41,858 nt of DNA from a virus. Shown one piece after another: positions 24,351 through 32,273 of the stretch. The position numbers were made by a program, and so were the translations under genes. How positions within the stretch are numbered: the stretch's first letter is position 1; every line of letters begins with the position of its first letter. The stretch lies in the UHGV virus genome UHGV-0466892; one strand, written 5' to 3'. The notes under the pieces were generated by a model. The model had not been told where the DNA came from and searched no databases. It worked only from the letters and a program-made list of their open reading frames with translations.

Positions 24351-24379
24351 CAAAAAACCCCACGGTGTTATCCGCAGGG
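24351..24379 (-). terminator. tR'-like terminator downstream of the late promoter
   Basis: On the minus-strand transcript CCCTGCGG-ataacac-CCGTGGGG forms an 8-bp stem (two G-U pairs) followed by TTTTTTG; the plus-strand version has mismatches. Confidence 0.5.
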
Positions 24380-24478
24380 CTTGAAACGAAGGCATTAACC
24401 CATCGTTGGGACAAAATTAACACAGATTCGGGAAAAGTAAATAGCCCAAGACAAAATCATAGGCTATCGCTATAGGCG
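24380..24478 (-). promoter_or_regulatory. probable late promoter / Q-utilisation region (pR'-like)
   Basis: About 100-bp AT-rich non-coding stretch immediately downstream of Q with weak -35/-10-like hexamers (TTTACT ... TAATTT), followed by the terminator. Confidence 0.35.
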
Positions 24479-25261
24479 TTACCGCGTTATCTGCTTAAGC
24501 TGTTTTTCGGCCCAGGACTCTTCGATATCAAATTTCGTGATCAGCAGGTCGTAGAATGGCTTAACAGACTTTTTCCAGGTGTCCAGGCTAATGGCGTCAG
24601 TAATCTGGCATACAGCAGCATAGGCTTCAGTCGACGGAAGTCGTTCATACCCACGCCCTCCGCAGCGCTTACAGTCAGCCAGAACAGGAACGCCCTGTTT
24701 CTCAGTAAGAGCCTGGTTCACTGCCTTGCCGCGCCCATGGCAATCACTGCAAGAAGCACTAACCACACCAGAGCCATTACACTTTTTGCATAGCACTTTG
24801 ATGGATTCTTTGACCTTCACCATCCCGGACACGGTCATTTTCCCTTCTGGCTTACGGAATTTATTGGTAAACACGTCAGCCTCAATGAAGCCCTGACCGT
24901 CACAACAATCGCACTGCTTCACGCTGGCAGCGCTGCGGGAATAGTCCTCAAAAGCGAAGGTGGCCAACTGGTGCATCACCTGAGGTTTAACCGCGGCACC
25001 GAGCTTACGCAGTGCGGCAACCTTGTCGCATTTTGTCATCGCGTACTCAGCCAGCAGACCGATCGCCCGATCCCGGTCGTTATTGCTTATGCCCATCTTG
25101 CCGAGGAAGGCGCTGTAACCCATTGCGGCGCGTTCCTGCGTCATGCCCATGGCAGCCATTATGTCGGTACCGGTCAGTGAATCGGAGGCGGTAGCGCGCG
25201 GAGAATCGCTAATCAGTGTGGATTTAGCGAAGTGGTATTTCACTGTGTTTTCAAGGTTCAT
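24479..25261 (-). CDS. Q: late-gene antitermination protein Q
   Basis: 260 aa; Cys-rich zinc-binding region (CDCCDGQG ... CKKCNGSG ... CSDCHGRG ... CKRCGGRG); located between RusA and the lysis genes as in lambdoid phages. Confidence 0.8.
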   Translation of the reverse strand: MNLENTVKYHFAKSTLISDSPRATASDSLTGTDIMAAMGMTQERAAMGYSAFLGKMGISNNDRDRAIGLLAEYAMTKCDKVAALRKLGAAVKPQVMHQLATFAFEDYSRSAASVKQCDCCDGQGFIEADVFTNKFRKPEGKMTVSGMVKVKESIKVLCKKCNGSGVVSASCSDCHGRGKAVNQALTEKQGVPVLADCKRCGGRGYERLPSTEAYAAVCQITDAISLDTWKKSVKPFYDLLITKFDIEESWAEKQLKQITR

Positions 25262-25394
25262 AGCGCTTCTCCAGCATAAGTTTTCACGTAATTCTTCAGT
25301 ATCCGGTAGTCCGTTAGCACAGAGCCGGGAAAGTGGTATAAGCGAAGCCGCTGCCAGCGAACGCGGAGGTGATCGGAAAAACAGGATTCAAATG

Positions 25395-25757
25395 TCATAC
25401 GGCCTCCAGCCCGGTGATTGTCAGTTCCAGCTTTCCACCTTTGGTAACGGGCATCTTCACAACGCGATAATCAACGACCTGAGCATCGTCCAGCCAGAAA
25501 CCTGCTTTGGTGAGTGCGTCAAAAGCGGCCTTTTGCAGATTATCCAGGTCACGGCGACGGCGATCCGGCATGTGGCACTCAATGCGGATTTTCACAGGCA
25601 TAGCCAGACCGATATCCAGCATTGCGTTTTTAATGATTCGGGCGACGTTATCGCGGTATGCCTGCCCTTCTGCGCTGATGTGCGTGCGCCCGCGATTATG
25701 GCGGTAGTAGCGGTTATTGCTCGGCGGCCAGGGCAATGTGATGTTGTAAGTATTCAC
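25395..25757 (-). CDS. rusA: Holliday junction resolvase RusA
   Basis: N-terminus (V)[22 protein letters not shown] matches the RusA family; GTG start overlaps the stop of the upstream gene (GTGA). Confidence 0.9.
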
Positions 25758-26044
25758 GCCTTGATTACCCCCTCTTTCAGCCAGATAACCTGCGTTCTCG
25801 CCATACCTTCCAGCGCGCATTCTTTAGCATACTCAGCATCGACAAAATGTGTACGGCGGTCGATCTCGTCGTGACAGGCAGAGCATGCAATGGTGGCAAT
25901 CAGATCAGGCGGTTTGATTCCGGTGCCACATAACCCGGCCAGGCGAATGTGCGCCAGTACAGACGTTTCCGGGTTACCGTTGCAGACGCCGGGAATTCGA
26001 ACCTGACAATCACGACCACGAGCCTCTTTGCGTAAATTTGCCAT
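25754..26044 (-). CDS. ybcO: YbcO-like protein (DUF1364, putative nuclease)
   Basis: [42 protein letters not shown]... closely resembles E. coli DLP12 YbcO as recalled; start trimmed to the internal Met; precedes rusA as in DLP12. Confidence 0.75.
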
Positions 26045-26046
26045 GC

Positions 26047-26256
26047 TCACCCCCACGCCTTGCTTTGCCATACCCGGCTCGGGCGAGGCGCGTTGTCGCC
26101 TTCCGGCAATTGCGCGCTGACGGTCCAGGTGATGTTGTCGCGATTCAGGCTGCGCTCTGTCTTTACACCGCGCGCCCGGTATTTCTCCACCAGCTCGTCG
26201 GCCTGTTCGGTGGTGCATTCGTGATGGTGGAACCAGGAAAATTTCATCGCCATCAC
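26047..26256 (-). CDS. small nin-region protein (hypothetical)
   Basis: 69-aa ORF, tightly coupled to both neighbours. Confidence 0.4.
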   Translation of the reverse strand: MMAMKFSWFHHHECTTEQADELVEKYRARGVKTERSLNRDNITWTVSAQLPEGDNAPRPSRVWQSKAWG

Positions 26257-26852
26257 CCCGCAAAGCTCATCAGCTGGGCGGCGGCGTTTTCTGCCTCTTC
26301 ACAACTGCGAAATGATCGGGAGAGTATCCATCGCCACAGAACATCGAGCGCGGCTTTGTACAGCTGCTGGAACTCGGTTTCGTCCATGTTAGCGAAGGCA
26401 ATACTGCGGGGATGTTTGCGAAGTGTTCCGTCAGGAAGCTGAATAGCGTCATAGTGACCAGACTCGACGATCACCCAGGCGCGATAAGCATCATAGGATT
26501 TGCAGATGCTGATGCTACCGGCGCGCTTATCGGCGATGCGGTCCAGATATTGCTCGGCAGCATCCAGCAGTGCGCCTTCGTTTCCACCAAATGCCGCGAG
26601 GAATTTAGCATAACCATTTACGAGCTTACGCTCATTGCTGGATATCGCCCCTCCAGTAGGTTCCCAGTATTCAAACCCGAGATTCAGGAGCGCAAAAAAA
26701 CGGCGATGGAATGCGGGATTCCTCACCTGGCGAAATTCGGCTACCAGCACGGCGCCGAGTTTGATTTTTGATTGCAGAATATCGCTGGTCTCCGGCGTCG
26801 CGGGGATCAGGATTCCTGATGACTGCTTGATGAGTTGTAGTTCGTGCGCCAT
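26253..26852 (-). CDS. nin-region protein (DUF1367-like)
   Basis: 199-aa ORF in the nin-like region. Confidence 0.5.
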   Translation of the reverse strand: MAHELQLIKQSSGILIPATPETSDILQSKIKLGAVLVAEFRQVRNPAFHRRFFALLNLGFEYWEPTGGAISSNERKLVNGYAKFLAAFGGNEGALLDAAEQYLDRIADKRAGSISICKSYDAYRAWVIVESGHYDAIQLPDGTLRKHPRSIAFANMDETEFQQLYKAALDVLWRWILSRSFRSCEEAENAAAQLMSFAG

Positions 26853-26886
26853 GGTTTCTCTCCGTGGCGCAGTAGGTTACGGTTGT

Positions 26887-27135
26887 TCAGACCGTTGATT
26901 TCATATTATCAGAAGGTGGGGTTACCCGGTAGCCGAGACGGTGAATAAACTGCATAAAACCATTAGGAGTAAAGACCTCTTCATCATCCAGCAAAGGCCG
27001 CATAGAAACCATGCCATTGACGCGATAAATTAGATGCCTGCCCGATGAAGGAAAGCTAAACACCACGCAGCCGTCAGACCTTCTTACAATGTCATACCAG
27101 TTGTCATCTGACGTTTGCAAAGCTGAATCACTCAC
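26887..27135 (-). CDS. hypothetical protein
   Basis: 82-aa ORF; no motif recognised. Confidence 0.35.
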   Translation of the reverse strand: MSDSALQTSDDNWYDIVRRSDGCVVFSFPSSGRHLIYRVNGMVSMRPLLDDEEVFTPNGFMQFIHRLGYRVTPPSDNMKSTV

Positions 27136-27288
27136 ATTTATGTTCTCCCTTCGAGCGACTAACAGACGCGATTAAAGATTGTCGGCAGCAGCATCAGAGG
27201 GTTACGCAAATTGCGGTATTCTGATAAATGCGCGCCAGCCTTAAGCGCAATTCTAATAAAACCAGTCGTCAGCGCTTTCCCAGGTTTC

Positions 27289-27486
27289 CTAGAGGATGGA
27301 TTCGATTTTCTTTTTATCGTCCTTGTCTCCACCGAAAACACTTAACCCATCGGACCCGGCACGGCGGATTGTGAGCCTGCAATTGTCATAGTGATCATTC
27401 AGGCGCTTAAGCAATTCTTTCTCCAGTGCTGGTACCGCGCCTTTAGGAAGTTCTTTCATGCGATCAATGGTTAATTCAACTTTCAT
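27289..27486 (-). CDS. dinI: DinI-like SOS-regulated protein
   Basis: MKVELTIDRMKELPKGAVPALEKELLKRLNDHY... resembles DinI; start set at the second ATG, which has a GGAGG Shine-Dalgarno; LexA box just upstream. Confidence 0.7.
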   Translation of the reverse strand: MKVELTIDRMKELPKGAVPALEKELLKRLNDHYDNCRLTIRRAGSDGLSVFGGDKDDKKKIESIL

Positions 27487-27504
27487 AATGGCCTCCATTG
27501 CATG

Positions 27505-27524
27505 TACTGTGTTTTTATACAGTA
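27505..27524. promoter_or_regulatory. LexA (SOS) box TACTGTGTTTTTATACAGTA
   Basis: Perfect CTGT-N8-ACAG palindrome with flanking TA, located just upstream of the dinI-like start. Confidence 0.7.
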
Positions 27525-27582
27525 TACCTATGCACGGAAATGATCAACGTTTTAAGAGCACAAATTGTTAATTTTCTGTCAG

Positions 27583-27614
27583 TAGTAAAAAAAGAAAACC
27601 CGCCGTAGCGGGTT
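27583..27614 (-). terminator. rho-independent terminator (minus strand)
   Basis: aacccgc cgta gcgggtt stem-loop followed on the minus strand by ttcttttttt. Confidence 0.6.
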
Positions 27615-27817
27615 GAATTAGCAATGTTTTATTAAGCCGCTATTTGTTTCTGCTGACAAAGCTCTGGCAAATTTGCACGCACCAGTGCTTCAGCAAACAT
27701 CGCTGGCTCCGCCGTGAAATCGCGGGATTCTGTTTTGTATCTGCTAATTATGAACCAGCAGAAACTTTACTAAGATATGAAAATTAGCCTGCTTAAACAG
27801 CCTTTATGAAAGGTTAG

Positions 27818-28285
27818 TTAATCTTCAAAAAGCTTAAAAGCCAAGTAAGCAACACTTGCGACTGCTGCGACAGGTGCCACCGCTGTGATTATTGCCCCGG
27901 CGGCCATTCCTCCTCCAACAACCGAACCAACGGCTGCCATTCCGGATGAGATCGACGCAGCCCCTGCCGTTCCTGCTGCGCCTGCTAAAGATGCAACACT
28001 GGCTCCAACTGTTCCAGCTGTTGCAGACATTATAGTAGCAGCTGACCCACCAGTAACGGCCGAAGCTGTAGTGGCTGCAACGCCAGCAGTTCCGATCAAT
28101 CCACCAGCACCGACAATTGTTGAAGATTTTATTTCTGAATTTGAATCAAGCACAGTTTTTCCAGGCGACCGAGAGTTCGAATCTTCTATAGTGTTCTCCC
28201 TAACGGCTTGTTCAAGGGCCTCGGCAAATACTCTCACTGCCTGCTGGGGTGATGAATGTTGCACAACTTCATTCTTAGTATCCAT
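27818..28285 (-). CDS. Gly/Ala-rich glycine-zipper membrane protein (cargo gene)
   Basis: 155 aa; polar ~60-aa N-terminus, then about 90 aa of G/A/S/T/V-rich hydrophobic sequence with repeated small-xxx-small spacing; own upstream AT-rich region and downstream terminator. Confidence 0.55.
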   Translation of the reverse strand: MDTKNEVVQHSSPQQAVRVFAEALEQAVRENTIEDSNSRSPGKTVLDSNSEIKSSTIVGAGGLIGTAGVAATTASAVTGGSAATIMSATAGTVGASVASLAGAAGTAGAASISSGMAAVGSVVGGGMAAGAIITAVAPVAAVASVAYLAFKLFED

Positions 28286-28413: not shown

Positions 28414-28893
28414 TCAGCTAAAATCAATACGCTCATGATTCATTCTGTCATGTACACATGGCTCACCGTCTTTCGGCTCAGGCCATTTGCGCTGTTTGTT
28501 AATCGCCAACTTCTCTACCATCGCTTGGGTAATCTGTTCATCACTGATACCGGCACGACGCTGCGTATCCCATAACAGGAATTGCATGTCAGCCCATTCG
28601 CTAAGGTCGCCAGGTTCAGCAGCAGCCTCGAGCGCTTCTTTAGAAAGGTGCTTCAGAGGACCAACTGGACCGACATCGCCGAAAGTAGCCTGTGACCATG
28701 TAGCATGCTCACGGCGTACTTGCTCACGGGCCATCGACTCCAGAACTCCATTGATCACCTTCACAGCATCAGCCATCGCATAGCCGACATTACCGCCGTC
28801 GCTTTGTGCTGCTGCTTTGCTGAGTATTTCACGTATCTGGTGCAGGCGATCGAGTGATACAGGACCGTGCGCCGGGTGGTTGTTAGTTGTCAT
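28414..28893 (-). CDS. DUF550-like protein (putative dATP/dGTP pyrophosphohydrolase domain)
   Basis: 159-aa ORF; family assignment from memory of prophage DUF550 proteins, not verified. Confidence 0.45.
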   Translation of the reverse strand: MTTNNHPAHGPVSLDRLHQIREILSKAAAQSDGGNVGYAMADAVKVINGVLESMAREQVRREHATWSQATFGDVGPVGPLKHLSKEALEAAAEPGDLSEWADMQFLLWDTQRRAGISDEQITQAMVEKLAINKQRKWPEPKDGEPCVHDRMNHERIDFS

Positions 28894-29261
28894 GCTGACG
28901 CTCCTTCTTGATATTTTTCGAACCAGAACACCACTGGGTCAGATTTCATTTCAACCAATCCCATACGAACCAGCGCTTTGCCTTTCCCGGACACAAGGAA
29001 TTCACGACGACCATCACCGATAATTCGCCGGTAATCTTCCAGGCTACTGCAATGCTTGTGCAGATTGCATGGGTGGCATGCTGGAACCATGTTTGATATA
29101 TCGTCACGTTCCTGGTGAAGCATATTTCCATCAAAACGAATGACCGGTTTTACATGGTCAGCATGCCCGCCTTTCTCTGGTAGTTCGCATCCACAATAAG
29201 CACAGCGACCGCCAAACTTCATGCGTAGCTCTGCGCGTTGCTTTTTGGTAATAGTTGTCAT
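28890..29261 (-). CDS. HNH endonuclease
   Basis: 123 aa; CAYCGC ... HADHVKP ... CHPCNLHKH is a classic HNH / zinc-finger nuclease motif. Confidence 0.85.
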   Translation of the reverse strand: MTTITKKQRAELRMKFGGRCAYCGCELPEKGGHADHVKPVIRFDGNMLHQERDDISNMVPACHPCNLHKHCSSLEDYRRIIGDGRREFLVSGKGKALVRMGLVEMKSDPVVFWFEKYQEGASA

Positions 29262-31562: not shown

Positions 31563-31781
31563 CTACTTTGGTAATCCGTCAGTGGGATTTGGATAGAGAT
31601 CAGGGCGCAGCTCGTGGGGGGTTACGCCTGTCATTTTGAAAATCGGGAAGATATAGCTTGGCGGGACGATCCCTTGGTCACGATTCTTCCAATGACTTAC
31701 AGACATACTCGTCACACCAAGCGCGATGCTGAGCTTTCTGGCAGAGCCAGCGGCTTTAATTGCTTTATCGAGTGCGGACAT
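31563..31781 (-). CDS. cro: Cro-like HTH regulator (YdaS family)
   Basis: 72 aa; KLSIALGVTSMSVSHWKNRDQGIVP ... ELRPDLYP matches the YdaS/Cro-like HTH pattern; AGGAG Shine-Dalgarno; divergent from the repressor. Confidence 0.7.
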   Translation of the reverse strand: MSALDKAIKAAGSARKLSIALGVTSMSVSHWKNRDQGIVPPSYIFPIFKMTGVTPHELRPDLYPNPTDGLPK

Positions 31782-31883: not shown

Positions 31884-32273
31884 ATGAGAAAAGAAGAACC
31901 CAACCTCGTTCTGGTGGAGCGCCTTACTGAGATCACTGATCGCGGCGTTACCAAAGCAGACATGGCAAGAATAGCTGGAGTCACCCCTCAGGCCGTAAAC
32001 GGCTGGTTCAAAAAAGGCGTGATTAGTAAGAAATCGGCACTGGCCATAGCCGACGCTGTTGGTATTTCTGTCGCCTGGCTACTCGGTGAAGACGTTGGGG
32101 AGAAAGACGGTCTCAAACCGGACGAACAGCGTTTGCTCGAGCTCTACCGCCAGTTACCGGAAGAAGAGCAGCAGAACATGCTCCGCATTTTTGCGCTTCG
32201 CCTGAAAGAGTTAGATGAGCTGTACGAGAAGTACATGAAGGGTCGGATTCGATCGCAAGGTGAGCAAACCTAA
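31884..32273 (+). CDS. cI: CI-like repressor (XRE-family HTH)
   Basis: Start set at ATG 31884 (MRKEEPNLVLVERL...); HTH segment GVTKADMARIAGVTPQAVNGWFKKG; divergent from cro across the operators. Confidence 0.7.
   Translation: MRKEEPNLVLVERLTEITDRGVTKADMARIAGVTPQAVNGWFKKGVISKKSALAIADAVGISVAWLLGEDVGEKDGLKPDEQRLLELYRQLPEEEQQNMLRIFALRLKELDELYEKYMKGRIRSQGEQT

What the first reader, a model, noticed from the sequence alone, without database searches (positions are those of the whole stretch)
27486..27524. Phage-borne DinI-like gene under a canonical LexA box
A perfect SOS box TACTGTGTTTTTATACAGTA lies just upstream of a DinI-like gene. DinI homologs modulate RecA co-protease activity, so the phage may tune SOS-dependent induction through a LexA-controlled product of its own.
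Basis: partly seen in the sequence, partly recalled or inferred. Interest (0 to 1): 0.4.

Follow-up and report, generated by a model that had tools for sequence, protein, structure and literature searches.

The report
SOS-controlled prophage induction switch, broken dinI
A perfect LexA (DNA-damage) operator does sit in front of a phage dinI-like gene, but this is the already-described Gifsy-type induction module whose working part is most likely the small antirepressor gene that follows, and in this phage the dinI gene is cut short by a stop codon that removes its RecA-binding end.

Summary
TACTGTGTTTTTATACAGTA (27505-27524) is the only perfect LexA box in the window. It overlaps the promoter of a minus-strand DinI-family gene (ATG 27486) and is almost invariant in 58 related loci.

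The locus matches, gene for gene, the published Gifsy-prophage SOS module (Lemire 2011; Owen 2017):
- terminator
- LexA box
- dinI
- a small GUG-started antirepressor (window 27135-26887; published gfoA primer arms match 20/21 and 33/34 nt)
- an irsA homologue

It is paired with a 129-aa HTH-only repressor that has no S24 cleavage domain. The box is therefore most likely the phage's induction switch, acting through the antirepressor rather than through DinI.

The dinI copy here carries an in-frame amber codon (CAG to TAG, 27291-27289). It deletes 11 residues, including five of the eight residues shown by cryo-EM and mutagenesis to hold DinI on RecA. The allele is real: it occurs on at least 28 E. 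coli contigs, against 288 for the intact twin. It arose at a CCAGG Dcm site and recurs independently in a Citrobacter prophage.

This is a new member of a known system and of low interest. The recurrent hotspot pseudogenisation is a minor curiosity.

The parts
27597..27614 (-). Rho-independent terminator (AACCCGCTACGGCGGGTT plus a T-run). It ends the upstream moron and early-operon transcript and insulates the LexA promoter.
   Evidence: Conserved in relatives and in Gifsy-2/SPN3UB. Lemire 2011 describes the same terminator before the Gifsy LexA boxes.
27542..27547 (-). Putative -35 hexamer TTGATC.
   Evidence: Read from the sequence. At least 90% conserved among 40 distinct upstream sequences, while the spacer after it varies. 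Not flagged by the consensus scan.
27519..27526 (-). Putative -10: TATACT (27526-27521, 15-nt spacer) or TACTGT (27524-27519, 17-nt spacer). Either one overlaps the LexA box.
   Evidence: Inference: the TSS was not mapped. Owen 2017 showed that a -10 SNP in the homologous Gifsy-1 promoter abolishes induction.
27505..27524 (.). LexA operator (SOS box) TACTGTGTTTTTATACAGTA. Both arms match the consensus perfectly.
27492..27496 (-). Shine-Dalgarno GGAGG, 5 nt before the dinI ATG.
27289..27486 (-). dinI' : a truncated DinI-family ORF of 65 codons plus the amber stop.
   Evidence: The same 65-aa protein is found in public E. coli assemblies.
27289..27291 (-). Premature amber codon TAG (CAG in intact relatives). 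It lies in CTAGG, the deamination product of the Dcm site CCAGG.
27253..27288 (-). Untranslated remnant of the dinI 3' end. It encodes ETWESADDWFY plus the original stop. This is the half of the C-terminal helix that carries the RecA-contact residues.
27136..27252 (-). 117-nt spacer between dinI and the antirepressor. It is 87% identical to Gifsy-2 although both flanks diverge. No terminator, Rfam family or stable fold was detected.
26887..27135 (-). GfoA-family antirepressor gene: 82 aa, GTG start, SD AGGGAG 9 nt upstream.
   Evidence: Assigned to phrog_340.
26253..26852 (-). irsA homologue (DUF1367; called NinB/Orf-like by PHROGs).
31884..32273 (+). Prophage repressor: 129 aa, HTH_3 only, no S24 peptidase domain. 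Its C-terminus resembles Gifsy-1 GfoR. It is the presumed target of the antirepressor.
31563..31781 (-). Cro-like (YdaS-family) regulator, divergent from the repressor. It marks the immunity region.

Best explanation
The LexA box is the operator of a sigma-70 promoter that drives a minus-strand operon: dinI' (27486-27289), a GfoA-family antirepressor (27135-26887), an irsA homologue (26852-26253), and possibly further nin-region genes. A terminator immediately upstream insulates this promoter from the early-right transcript.

**In a lysogen.** LexA sits on the -10/start region and keeps the operon off.

**After DNA damage.** RecA-stimulated LexA cleavage frees the promoter and the 82-aa antirepressor is made. 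It binds the phage's short, non-cleavable 129-aa repressor, strips it from its operators, and the prophage is induced. Both box arms are perfect consensus, so binding should be tight and derepression late, which would limit induction to serious damage (inference).

**The dinI cistron.** In this phage lineage it is a nonsense allele. A C-to-T transition at the inner cytosine of a Dcm site (CCAGG to CTAGG) turned Gln66 into amber. This removes the distal half of the C-terminal helix, including 3 of the 5 residues of the hydrophobic pocket that receives RecA F203 and 2 of the 3 acidic contact residues. The product is therefore most likely unable to act on RecA filaments. Its loss appears to be tolerated, because dinI is dispensable for induction.

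**Shown here:** the sequence anatomy, the homologies, the allele distribution and the mutational context.

**Inferred:** LexA binding, co-transcription, antirepressor-repressor binding, and loss of DinI function.
For: **Architecture** is identical to the experimentally dissected Gifsy module:
- Terminator.
- Perfect box 18 nt from the ATG, against 19 nt in Gifsy.
- DinI family hit.
- A GTG-started small ORF, then a DUF1367 gene.

**Published Gifsy-1(14028) primer arms** map to the expected places in the window:

| Arm | Identity | Window position |
|---|---|---|
| gfoA 5' | 20/21 | 27134-27114 |
| gfoA 3' | 33/34 | 26940-26907 |
| irsA 5' | 35/36 | 26855-26820 |
| gfoR 3' | 30/33 | 32224-32256 |

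**Antirepressor homologues.** A Salmonella cluster (P0003, 270 member sequences) carries the GfoA N-terminus MSNSALQK and the motif RRLGYRVTPPSD, and is 89% identical to the window ORF.

**Repressor.** It is HTH-only. In GfoA-type loci that reach the immunity region, the repressor C-half is 72-100% identical while the N-half is 52-100%. SPN3UB-type loci match the C-half at only 37-54%, and the one GftA-type locus does not match it at all.

**Literature:**
- LexA-dependent induction, sufficiency of the antirepressor, and non-cleaved repressors (PMC3121763).
- gfoA is co-transcribed from PdinI, and a -10 SNP abolishes Gifsy-1 induction (PMC5322425).
- Gifsy dinI homologues are induced 4.6- to 23-fold by nalidixic acid (PMC8072944).

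**Conservation.** The box is conserved in 58 loci and the promoter elements are conserved.

**Amber allele:**
- TAG against CAG in 5 close relatives.
- 0 of 49 complete E. coli genomes with the locus match the TAG-bearing 81-nt query perfectly; the best match differs by one base.
- The exact 65-aa product is indexed in 62 blocks of public assemblies, and the flanks are 100% identical to the window over 6.2 kb.
- 28 contigs carry it, against 288 for the intact twin.
- Dcm context, and the only CTAGG in the window against 104 CCWGG.
- The same codon is hit on a different haplotype in a different Citrobacter prophage.
- Lost residues mapped with the 1GHH/7YWA alignment and Gao 2023.
Against: - Nothing was tested experimentally for this phage.
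- The consensus promoter scan did not call this promoter. With TATACT as the -10 the spacer is only 15 nt, and with a 17-nt spacer the -10 is the weak TACTGT.
- The window ORF has no detectable similarity to GftA, the best-studied antirepressor. Its identity as GfoA rests on primer-arm matches and a proxy homologue, not on a full-length published GfoA sequence.
- The repressor's N-terminus differs from GfoR, so cognate pairing is inferred.
- 2 of 8 GfoA-type loci with enough upstream sequence showed no repressor C-half hit.
- That the truncated DinI is non-functional is inferred from E. coli DinI mutagenesis. Residual or altered activity of residues 1-65 is not excluded.
- The Dcm origin is inferred from sequence context. 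No methylation state or mutation rate was measured.
Confidence: 0.8

Rival explanations
1. One reading: the LexA-controlled phage DinI protein binds RecA filaments and modulates co-protease activity, and in that way tunes SOS-dependent induction of this phage.
For: The gene is a bona fide DinI-family member under a LexA box. Intact alleles are strongly conserved at the protein level across 58 loci, so DinI presumably does something useful for such phages. Lemire 2011 also argues from conservation.
Against: In this window the gene is amber-truncated and lacks 5 of the 8 validated RecA-contact residues. Non-polar dinI deletions had no significant effect on Gifsy induction. The repressor lacks an S24 domain, so RecA co-protease acts only on LexA.
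Confidence: 0.08
2. The amber codon is decoded, by a suppressor tRNA or by context-dependent read-through, so a functional full-length 77-aa DinI is still made, possibly at a low and regulated level.
For: The 11 codons after the TAG are still intact and in frame in the E. coli lineage.
Against: There is no tRNA gene in the window. The copies carrying TAG are 99.9-100% identical over 6.2 kb, so an intact tail says nothing about selection. In the independent Citrobacter lineage the tail has a 3-nt deletion and a second stop, so it is not maintained. Natural E. coli isolates rarely carry amber suppressors (general knowledge).
Confidence: 0.05
3. The truncation is adaptive rather than neutral. Recurrent loss of the DinI tail is selected, for example to change SOS or induction kinetics, or because residues 1-65 have a new activity. 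The Dcm hotspot merely supplies the mutation.
For: The same codon was hit independently in two prophage lineages in two genera, each found on at least 20 contigs. The first 65 codons remain open in both.
Against: This is the only CAG/CAA/CGA codon in the gene. It is one of only two nonsense-capable positions at Dcm inner cytosines, out of 32 possible nonsense substitutions, so recurrence is expected from mutation bias alone. The allele is a minority: 28 against 288 contigs, and 0 against 61 in IMG/VR. The Citrobacter locus also shows changes in the promoter and box and lies next to non-phage genes, which suggests general decay.
Confidence: 0.08
4. The TAG is a sequencing or assembly error in the window, and the gene is really intact.
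For: It is a single-base difference from the closest complete-genome relative.
Against: The exact truncated protein is recorded in 62 index blocks and at least 24 contigs from independent NCBI, ENA and Logan assemblies. Two of them are 100% identical to the window over 6.2 kb.
Confidence: 0.01
5. The LexA box controls only dinI. The downstream 82-aa ORF has its own promoter, or is not an antirepressor, so the box is irrelevant to induction.
For: A 117-nt spacer separates the genes. No experiment exists for this phage. The ORF is annotated 'hypothetical' everywhere.
Against: No terminator or promoter-like site was found between the genes. In Gifsy-2, replacing the LexA-box region with PBAD made induction arabinose-dependent, and in Gifsy-1 a PdinI -10 SNP abolished induction through gfoA. 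The ORF matches gfoA at both ends.
Confidence: 0.05

Closest known systems
PdinI-gfoA operon of Salmonella prophage Gifsy-1 (strain ATCC14028) with repressor GfoR (Lemire, Figueroa-Bossi & Bossi 2011, PMC3121763; Owen et al. 2017, PMC5322425)
   Same: The order is the same: terminator, LexA box, dinI, GUG-started small antirepressor, irsA. The antirepressor is of the same family (primer arms 20/21 and 33/34 nt; the proxy homologue is 89% identical). The repressor is short and HTH-only, with a matching C-terminal segment (EKYMKGRIR). The box-to-ATG distance is 18 nt against 19 nt.
   Different: The host is E. coli and the phage backbone is different (mEp237-like early region, Omnitron-like virion genes). 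The repressor N-terminus, and so the immunity specificity, differs. The window ORF runs 5 codons past the GfoA stop. The dinI cistron is amber-truncated here.
dinI-gftA module of Gifsy-2 and Gifsy-1 of strain LT2
   Same: Same promoter, operator and operon layout. The dinI tail and the spacer are 87-92% identical to the window. The irsA homologue is 81% identical.
   Different: The antirepressor GftA belongs to a different family, with no BLASTP similarity (phrog_4847 against phrog_340). The Gln codon context is CTGCAGG, which is not a Dcm site.
Tum antirepressor of coliphage 186 and the split tum genes of Fels-2/PSP3 (as discussed in PMC3121763)
   Same: A LexA-controlled antirepressor is physically linked to a DinI-like sequence, and SOS induction works without repressor cleavage.
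   Different: In 186 the antirepressor and DinI-like parts are fused in one protein with the antirepressor part first. Here they are separate genes with dinI first. The phage type is also different (P2-like).
Chromosomal E. coli DinI (PDB 1GHH; RecA-DinI complex 7YWA, Gao et al. 2023, PMC9926225)
   Same: Same fold family (phmmer E = 1e-17). The C-terminal motif ILQETWESADDWF is identical in intact phage alleles. Both are LexA-regulated.
   Different: The window's product stops after ...IL. It lacks the equivalents of E69, W71, D76, W77 and F78 and keeps only L13, L21 and E24.
Amber hotspots at CCAGG Dcm sites in lacI (Coulondre, Miller, Farabaugh & Gilbert 1978; cited from my own knowledge, not retrieved here)
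   Same: A C-to-T change at the inner, methylated cytosine of CCAGG converts CAG to TAG. It recurs at the same site.
   Different: Here it is seen in natural prophage populations rather than in a laboratory mutation spectrum. Methylation at this site was not measured.
dinIR of Klebsiella pneumoniae (DinR sRNA processed from the dinI 3' end; PMC10907235)
   Same: A LexA-controlled dinI transcript whose 3' portion has a function beyond coding. In the window the dinI tail and spacer are unusually conserved.
   Different: DinR is chromosomal and Klebsiella-specific, and it ends at its own terminator. The window has no terminator after dinI, no Rfam hit and no stable fold.

Membership tests
LexA operator (E. 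coli-type SOS box) | A 20-bp palindrome TACTG(TA)5CAGTA with an invariant CTGT-N8-ACAG core. | tested here: met
   27505-27524. Both 6-nt arms are perfect, 17 of 20 positions match the full consensus, and all mismatches lie in the central AT-rich spacer.
LexA operator (E. coli-type SOS box) | Positioned to occlude a promoter or transcription start. | tested here: inconclusive
   It overlaps both candidate -10 hexamers, and a conserved -35 TTGATC lies upstream. The TSS is not mapped, and the consensus scan did not call the promoter.
LexA operator (E. coli-type SOS box) | Binds LexA, and the gene is derepressed by DNA damage. | not testable with these tools
   Shown only for the homologous Gifsy loci (PMC3121763, PMC8072944).
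DinI family (PF06183) | Sequence match above the Pfam gathering threshold. | tested here: met
   58.2 bits against a cut-off of 24.2 for the 65-aa product, covering profile positions 1-52 of 63. Also phrog_189 and PDB 1GHH at E = 1e-17 for the read-through form.
DinI family (PF06183) | A complete C-terminal helix carrying the RecA-binding pocket residues (W71, W77, F78) and the acidic residues (E69, D76). | tested here: not met
   The amber codon at position 66 removes all five. Intact relatives keep them. The window copy is best described as a dinI nonsense allele or pseudogene.
Gifsy-type LexA/antirepressor induction module | A Rho-independent terminator immediately upstream of the LexA-controlled promoter. 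| tested here: met
   27614-27597, 7-bp stem with 5 GC pairs plus a T-run. Conserved in relatives.
Gifsy-type LexA/antirepressor induction module | A dinI homologue as the first cistron, then a small (70-85 aa) antirepressor ORF with a non-AUG start, then an irsA homologue. | tested here: met
   GTG start at 27135. In 58 related loci the ORF after dinI starts with GTG in 54.
Gifsy-type LexA/antirepressor induction module | The antirepressor is homologous to an experimentally validated one (GfoA, GfhA, GftA or FsoA). | tested here: met
   For GfoA: primer arms match 20/21 and 33/34 nt at both ends of the ORF, the decoded termini match, and the ORF is 89% identical to Salmonella homologue P0003, which carries both GfoA motifs. 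For GftA: no similarity.
Gifsy-type LexA/antirepressor induction module | A short lysogenic repressor (about 130-150 aa) without an S24 autocleavage domain. | tested here: met
   129 aa, with HTH_3 and CI-HTH hits only. Its 3' end matches the gfoR primer arm at 30/33 nt.
Gifsy-type LexA/antirepressor induction module | The antirepressor binds the repressor and is necessary and sufficient for SOS induction. | not testable with these tools
   Only indirect support: the repressor C-half co-varies with antirepressor type in the few loci that reach the immunity region.
Dcm (CCWGG) deamination hotspot | The mutated base is the inner C of CCWGG in the ancestral sequence, and the change is C to T. | tested here: met
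   Intact alleles have CCAGG at CDS nt 195-199. TAG alleles have CTAGG there.
Dcm (CCWGG) deamination hotspot | Independent recurrence at the same site. | tested here: met
   The E. coli and Citrobacter alleles lie on different flanking haplotypes, each with an intact CAG sibling, and in different prophages. No formal phylogeny was built.
Dcm (CCWGG) deamination hotspot | The site is actually methylated in the host, and the mutation rate is Dcm-dependent. | not testable with these tools
   No methylome or mutation-rate data.

The most novel reading that the evidence does not exclude
The recurrent amber at the CCAGG site is not mere decay. Prophage dinI would then be a contingency locus whose Dcm-hotspot knockout is repeatedly selected because it changes SOS or induction dynamics. 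Alternatively, the retained 65-codon leader, together with the unusually conserved dinI-tail and spacer block (27153-27290), acts in cis at the RNA level to set antirepressor output, as a processing or stability element distantly analogous to Klebsiella DinR.
Probability: 0.06. Interest if true: 0.5.

Novelty: new member of a known kind. Interest (0 to 1): 0.2.

Why it matters
The main value is correct annotation. In this phage, and in at least dozens of E. coli, Citrobacter, Klebsiella and Salmonella prophages, the LexA box upstream of dinI should be read as the induction switch, and the unannotated 'hypothetical' 82-aa gene behind dinI as the likely antirepressor. This matters for predicting which prophages are SOS-inducible by antibiotics such as quinolones. 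It also matters for prophage cross-talk, because antirepressors can act in trans on other prophages' repressors.

The natural TAG/CAG pair is a smaller point. The proteins are otherwise identical, and the closest intact locus is 99.6% identical over 3.4 kb. The pair occurs on 28 and 288 contigs respectively. It offers a ready-made, near-isogenic test of the still unclear role of phage DinI.

Tried and rejected
- **GftA homology.** BLASTP of the 82-aa ORF against Gifsy-2 GftA found no alignment, and the PHROG families differ. Homology to GftA is rejected. The link is to GfoA instead.
- **RNA element in the spacer.** Rfam found nothing at gathering threshold over the whole window or at E <= 1 over 26800-27900. 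The fold of the dinI tail plus spacer is no more stable than shuffles (z = 0.16). There is no evidence for a structured RNA or a DinR-like sRNA.
- **Overlapping alternative-frame ORF.** The 60-aa ORF at 27159-27341 (minus strand) is conserved only because the DNA is. A 2-nt indel in the Citrobacter spacer breaks it. Rejected as a gene.
- **Phage-encoded suppressor tRNA.** None found.
- **Other LexA sites in the window.** None found.
- **Consensus promoter scan.** It does not call the dinI promoter. The promoter assignment rests on conservation and on homology to Gifsy.
- **Heterology index.** I did not compute a Lewis heterology index because I do not hold the matrix. Published values for the Gifsy boxes are 3.9-5.3.
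- **The upstream ATG at 27498 (MEAIMKVEL...).** Rejected as the start: it has no SD, it lies 6 nt from the box, and homologues start at MKVEL/MRIEL.
- **Supplementary figures of Lemire 2011.** These alignments of GfoA homologues are images and could not be read. The primer table was used instead.
Full report
**1. What is in the sequence**

The 20-mer TACTGTGTTTTTATACAGTA lies at 27505-27524. It is the only perfect match in the window to TACTGT-N8-ACAGTA. The four other hits need two mismatches each, and no shuffle gave five hits. The bare CTGT-N8-ACAG core also occurs only here, but a single such core is not rare by chance (31 of 100 shuffles). The strength of the observation therefore comes from the two perfect 6-nt arms (about 0.0025 expected in 41.9 kb, by arithmetic) and from the position.

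The gene it precedes is on the minus strand. The layout in the 5' to 3' direction of that strand is:
- A Rho-independent terminator at 27614-27597.
- TTGATC at 27547-27542.
- TATACT at 27526-27521, overlapping the box.
- GGAGG at 27496-27492.
- ATG at 27486.

The finding's coordinates run from that ATG to the far end of the box. The ORF is a clear DinI-family member: PF06183 at 58.2 bits against a cut-off of 24.2, and phrog_189.

**2. The dinI copy is interrupted**

Translating through the end of the ORF gives ...KKIESIL*ETWESADDWFY*. An in-frame TAG at 27291-27289 is followed by the conserved DinI C-terminus. Phage mEp237 and four E. coli prophages are 97-99% identical over this locus. All read CAG at that codon and encode a 77-aa protein, and the LexA box is identical in all six sequences.

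The stop is not an error:
- The exact 65-aa product is indexed in 62 blocks of public assemblies.
- Two NCBI E. coli drafts are 100% identical to the window over 6.2 kb, and a Logan assembly is 99.9% identical.
- A cluster look-up counts the truncated form on 28 contigs and its otherwise identical intact twin on 288.
- None of the 49 complete E. coli genomes that carry the locus matches the TAG-bearing 81-nt query perfectly; the closest differs by one base.
- IMG/VR holds 0 TAG and 61 CAG alleles for the same flanking pattern.

**3. What the truncation removes**

The read-through protein aligns to E. coli DinI (PDB 1GHH/7YWA) at E = 1e-17. After residue 36 the window numbering equals the E. 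coli numbering minus 2.

Gao et al. 2023 (PMC9926225) report two sets of contacts:
- RecA F203 inserts into a DinI pocket made of L13, L21, W71, W77 and F78.
- E24, E69 and D76 contact a basic patch on RecA.

Substituting any of these residues impairs filament stabilisation. The window product keeps the equivalents of L13, L21 and E24 and loses those of E69, W71, D76, W77 and F78. I infer that it cannot act on RecA filaments as DinI does. This has not been tested.

**4. How the stop arose**

In intact alleles the codon lies in CTC CAG GAA, which contains CCAGG. This is a Dcm site whose inner (methylated) cytosine is the first base of CAG. The TAG alleles read CTAGG. The evidence for a hotspot origin is as follows:
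- This is the only CTAGG in the whole window, against 104 CCWGG sites.
- 32 single substitutions could create a stop in this gene. Five are transitions, and only two lie at Dcm inner cytosines: Q66 and W69.
- A second 65-aa allele (P0043, G47C) occurs in Citrobacter freundii on 20 contigs.
- That allele sits in a different prophage. It has an autotransporter upstream, a GftA-type antirepressor, NinG and a different Q.
- Its flanking haplotype also differs: TCAATCCTCTAGGAT against the window's TCCATCCTCTAGGAA. Each haplotype has an intact CAG sibling.

The two alleles therefore arose independently. Deamination of 5-methylcytosine at CCAGG is the classical source of amber hotspots (Coulondre et al. 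1978, cited from my own knowledge), and it accounts for the recurrence without invoking selection.

In the Citrobacter lineage the dead tail has also lost 3 nt and gained a second stop. The promoter and box carry changes as well (TATACT to TTTACT, and the last box base A to G). All of this fits decay.

**5. What the LexA box is most likely for**

Lemire, Figueroa-Bossi and Bossi (2011, PMC3121763) dissected this same arrangement in Salmonella Gifsy-1, -2 and -3. Their findings:
- A terminator is followed by a LexA box next to a dinI homologue.
- Next comes a small ORF starting at a non-canonical codon. It encodes an antirepressor (GftA, GfoA or GfhA).
- Next comes an irsA homologue.
- The prophage repressors are about 150 aa and are not cleaved.
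- Replacing the LexA-box region with PBAD made induction arabinose-dependent.
- The antirepressor alone was sufficient for induction.
- Non-polar dinI or irsA deletions had no significant effect on induction.

Owen et al. (2017, PMC5322425) showed that gfoA is co-transcribed from PdinI. They also showed that a single -10 SNP silences Gifsy-1, and that repairing it restores phage release to 1e4 PFU/ml uninduced and 2e6 PFU/ml with mitomycin C. Mérida-Floriano et al. (2021, PMC8072944) measured 4.6- to 23-fold induction of the three Gifsy dinI homologues by nalidixic acid, with the box 19 bp from the ATG. In the window the distance is 18 bp.

**6. Testing the window against that module**

Downstream of dinI' there is a 117-nt spacer. 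Then comes an 82-aa ORF with a GTG start (27135-26887) and an AGGGAG SD, followed by a DUF1367 gene at 26852-26253.

The ORF has no similarity to GftA and falls in a different PHROG family. However, the primer table of Lemire et al. gives the ends of the Gifsy-1(14028) genes:
- The gfoA cloning primer decodes to MSNSALQ. The tagging primer decodes to RRLGYRVTPPSDI.
- The window ORF begins MSDSALQ and contains HRLGYRVTPPSDN.
- At the DNA level the two arms match the window at 20/21 nt (27134-27114) and 33/34 nt (26940-26907).
- A Salmonella cluster with 270 member sequences (P0003) has MSNSALQK and RRLGYRVTPPSD and is 89% identical to the window ORF.
- A 1-nt difference (GATAATATGA against GATATATGA) explains why GfoA stops five codons earlier. 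This is read from the sequences.
- The irsA deletion primer decodes to MAHELQLIKQS, the exact N-terminus of the window's DUF1367 protein, and matches at 35/36 nt.

The repressor (31884-32273, plus strand) is 129 aa with only HTH hits and no S24 domain. Its 3' end matches the gfoR tagging arm at 30/33 nt (EKYMKGRIR). The gfoR 5' arm finds nothing, which fits a different operator specificity.

**7. Comparative support**

In 58 loci with this dinI haplogroup, the ORF after dinI falls into four types:

| Type of ORF after dinI | Loci |
|---|---|
| GfoA-like | 39 |
| GftA-like | 7 |
| SPN3UB-like (a distant GfoA relative; 38% identity) | 8 |
| Fourth type | 4 |

54 of the 58 start with GTG. dinI and its promoter/operator are therefore a constant module, and the antirepressor is a swappable cassette.

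Where the loci reach the immunity region, GfoA-type loci carry a repressor whose C-terminal half is 72-100% identical to the window's, while the N-terminal half is only 52-100% identical. SPN3UB-type loci match the C-half at 37-54%. The single GftA-type locus has no C-half match. The sample is small, and two GfoA-type loci gave no hit. Still, the pattern fits an antirepressor that recognises the repressor's C-terminal part, as expected from GfoA acting on the heteroimmune GfoR and GfhR.

**8. Operon limits**

On the minus strand no terminator-like site was found between 27597 and 24382. The first one lies just after Q (24479-25261). The pattern scan is simple and cannot see Rho-dependent sites. 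Whether the LexA-controlled transcript reaches Q remains open.

**9. Verdict**

- LexA control is very likely by homology, but it is unproven for this phage.
- The proposed DinI-mediated tuning of induction is not supported, because the gene is a nonsense allele here and is dispensable in the studied relatives.
- The box most likely governs induction through a GfoA-family antirepressor acting on a non-cleavable repressor.
- Lemire et al. already noted that the dinI-irsA region is conserved in prophages of Escherichia, Citrobacter, Klebsiella and Enterobacter. This is therefore a new member of a known kind.
- Literature searches found no later paper in the searchable library on E. coli GfoA-type modules or on truncated phage dinI alleles.
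- The recurrent Dcm-site amber is a tidy but minor addition.

Noticed in passing
window 27818-28285 (minus strand), with a promoter-like site at 28348-28319 and the terminator at 27614-27597: A 155-aa ORF with a polar N-terminal part and a long Gly/Ala/Ser/Thr/Val-rich hydrophobic C-terminal part. It has no Pfam or PHROG hit. It looks like a self-contained moron cassette (promoter, ORF, terminator) sitting between the replication genes and the dinI operon. In relatives the same slot holds methyltransferase remnants, a tRNA-Ile or an autotransporter.
   Followed up: partly
window 27153-27290 (minus strand): dinI tail plus the spacer before the antirepressor: This block is 87-92% identical to Salmonella Gifsy-1/-2, while dinI codons 1-65 are only about 71% identical and the antirepressor genes are unrelated. 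It may be a conserved linker flanking a swapped cassette. It has no Rfam hit and no unusually stable fold, and its function, if any, is unexplained.
   Followed up: partly
window 27284-27280 (minus strand): CCTGG covering Trp codon 69 of the ancestral dinI: This is a second Dcm site in the dinI tail. Deamination on the template strand would turn TGG into TAG. The short C-terminal segment therefore holds both Dcm-linked amber-prone positions of the gene.
   Followed up: yes
L012-L015 (Citrobacter/metagenome contigs), dinI at 3001-3198 of L012: An independent dinI amber allele lies in a different prophage. It has a 3-nt deletion and second stop in the tail, TATACT changed to TTTACT, and the last box base changed A to G. 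A 1390-aa autotransporter gene lies directly upstream. It looks like a decaying or remodelled prophage.
   Followed up: partly
window 24355-27597 (minus strand): No terminator-like site was found between the LexA-controlled promoter and the end of the Q antiterminator gene (24479-25261). The first is at 24382-24355, just after Q. SOS derepression might therefore also feed transcription into Q. The scan cannot detect Rho-dependent sites.
   Followed up: no
proteins P0011, P0027, P0033, P0035 (Salmonella homologues of the 82-aa ORF): Several database homologues of the GfoA-family protein share the N-terminal half and then diverge abruptly into unrelated sequence, as expected from frameshifts. 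Antirepressor inactivation may be a recurrent route to non-inducible prophages.
   Followed up: no
whole window: The phage is a mosaic. The early and nin region (about 23.4-40.7 kb) is 94% identical to coliphages mEp237 and HK225. The int/pin region is 98-99% identical to phi80 and mEpX1. The virion genes (1-20 kb) are 96% identical to Citrobacter phage Omnitron and 79-89% identical to myovirus-type phages of Hafnia, E. coli and Salmonella (SEN34). The right end (40.7-41.9 kb) holds tail-fibre assembly genes.
   Followed up: partly
window 28414-29261 (minus strand): An HNH endonuclease gene (28890-29261) overlaps by 4 nt a dATP/dGTP pyrophosphohydrolase-family gene (28414-28893). Both lie upstream of the moron and are not shared with mEp237 at this position.
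   Followed up: no
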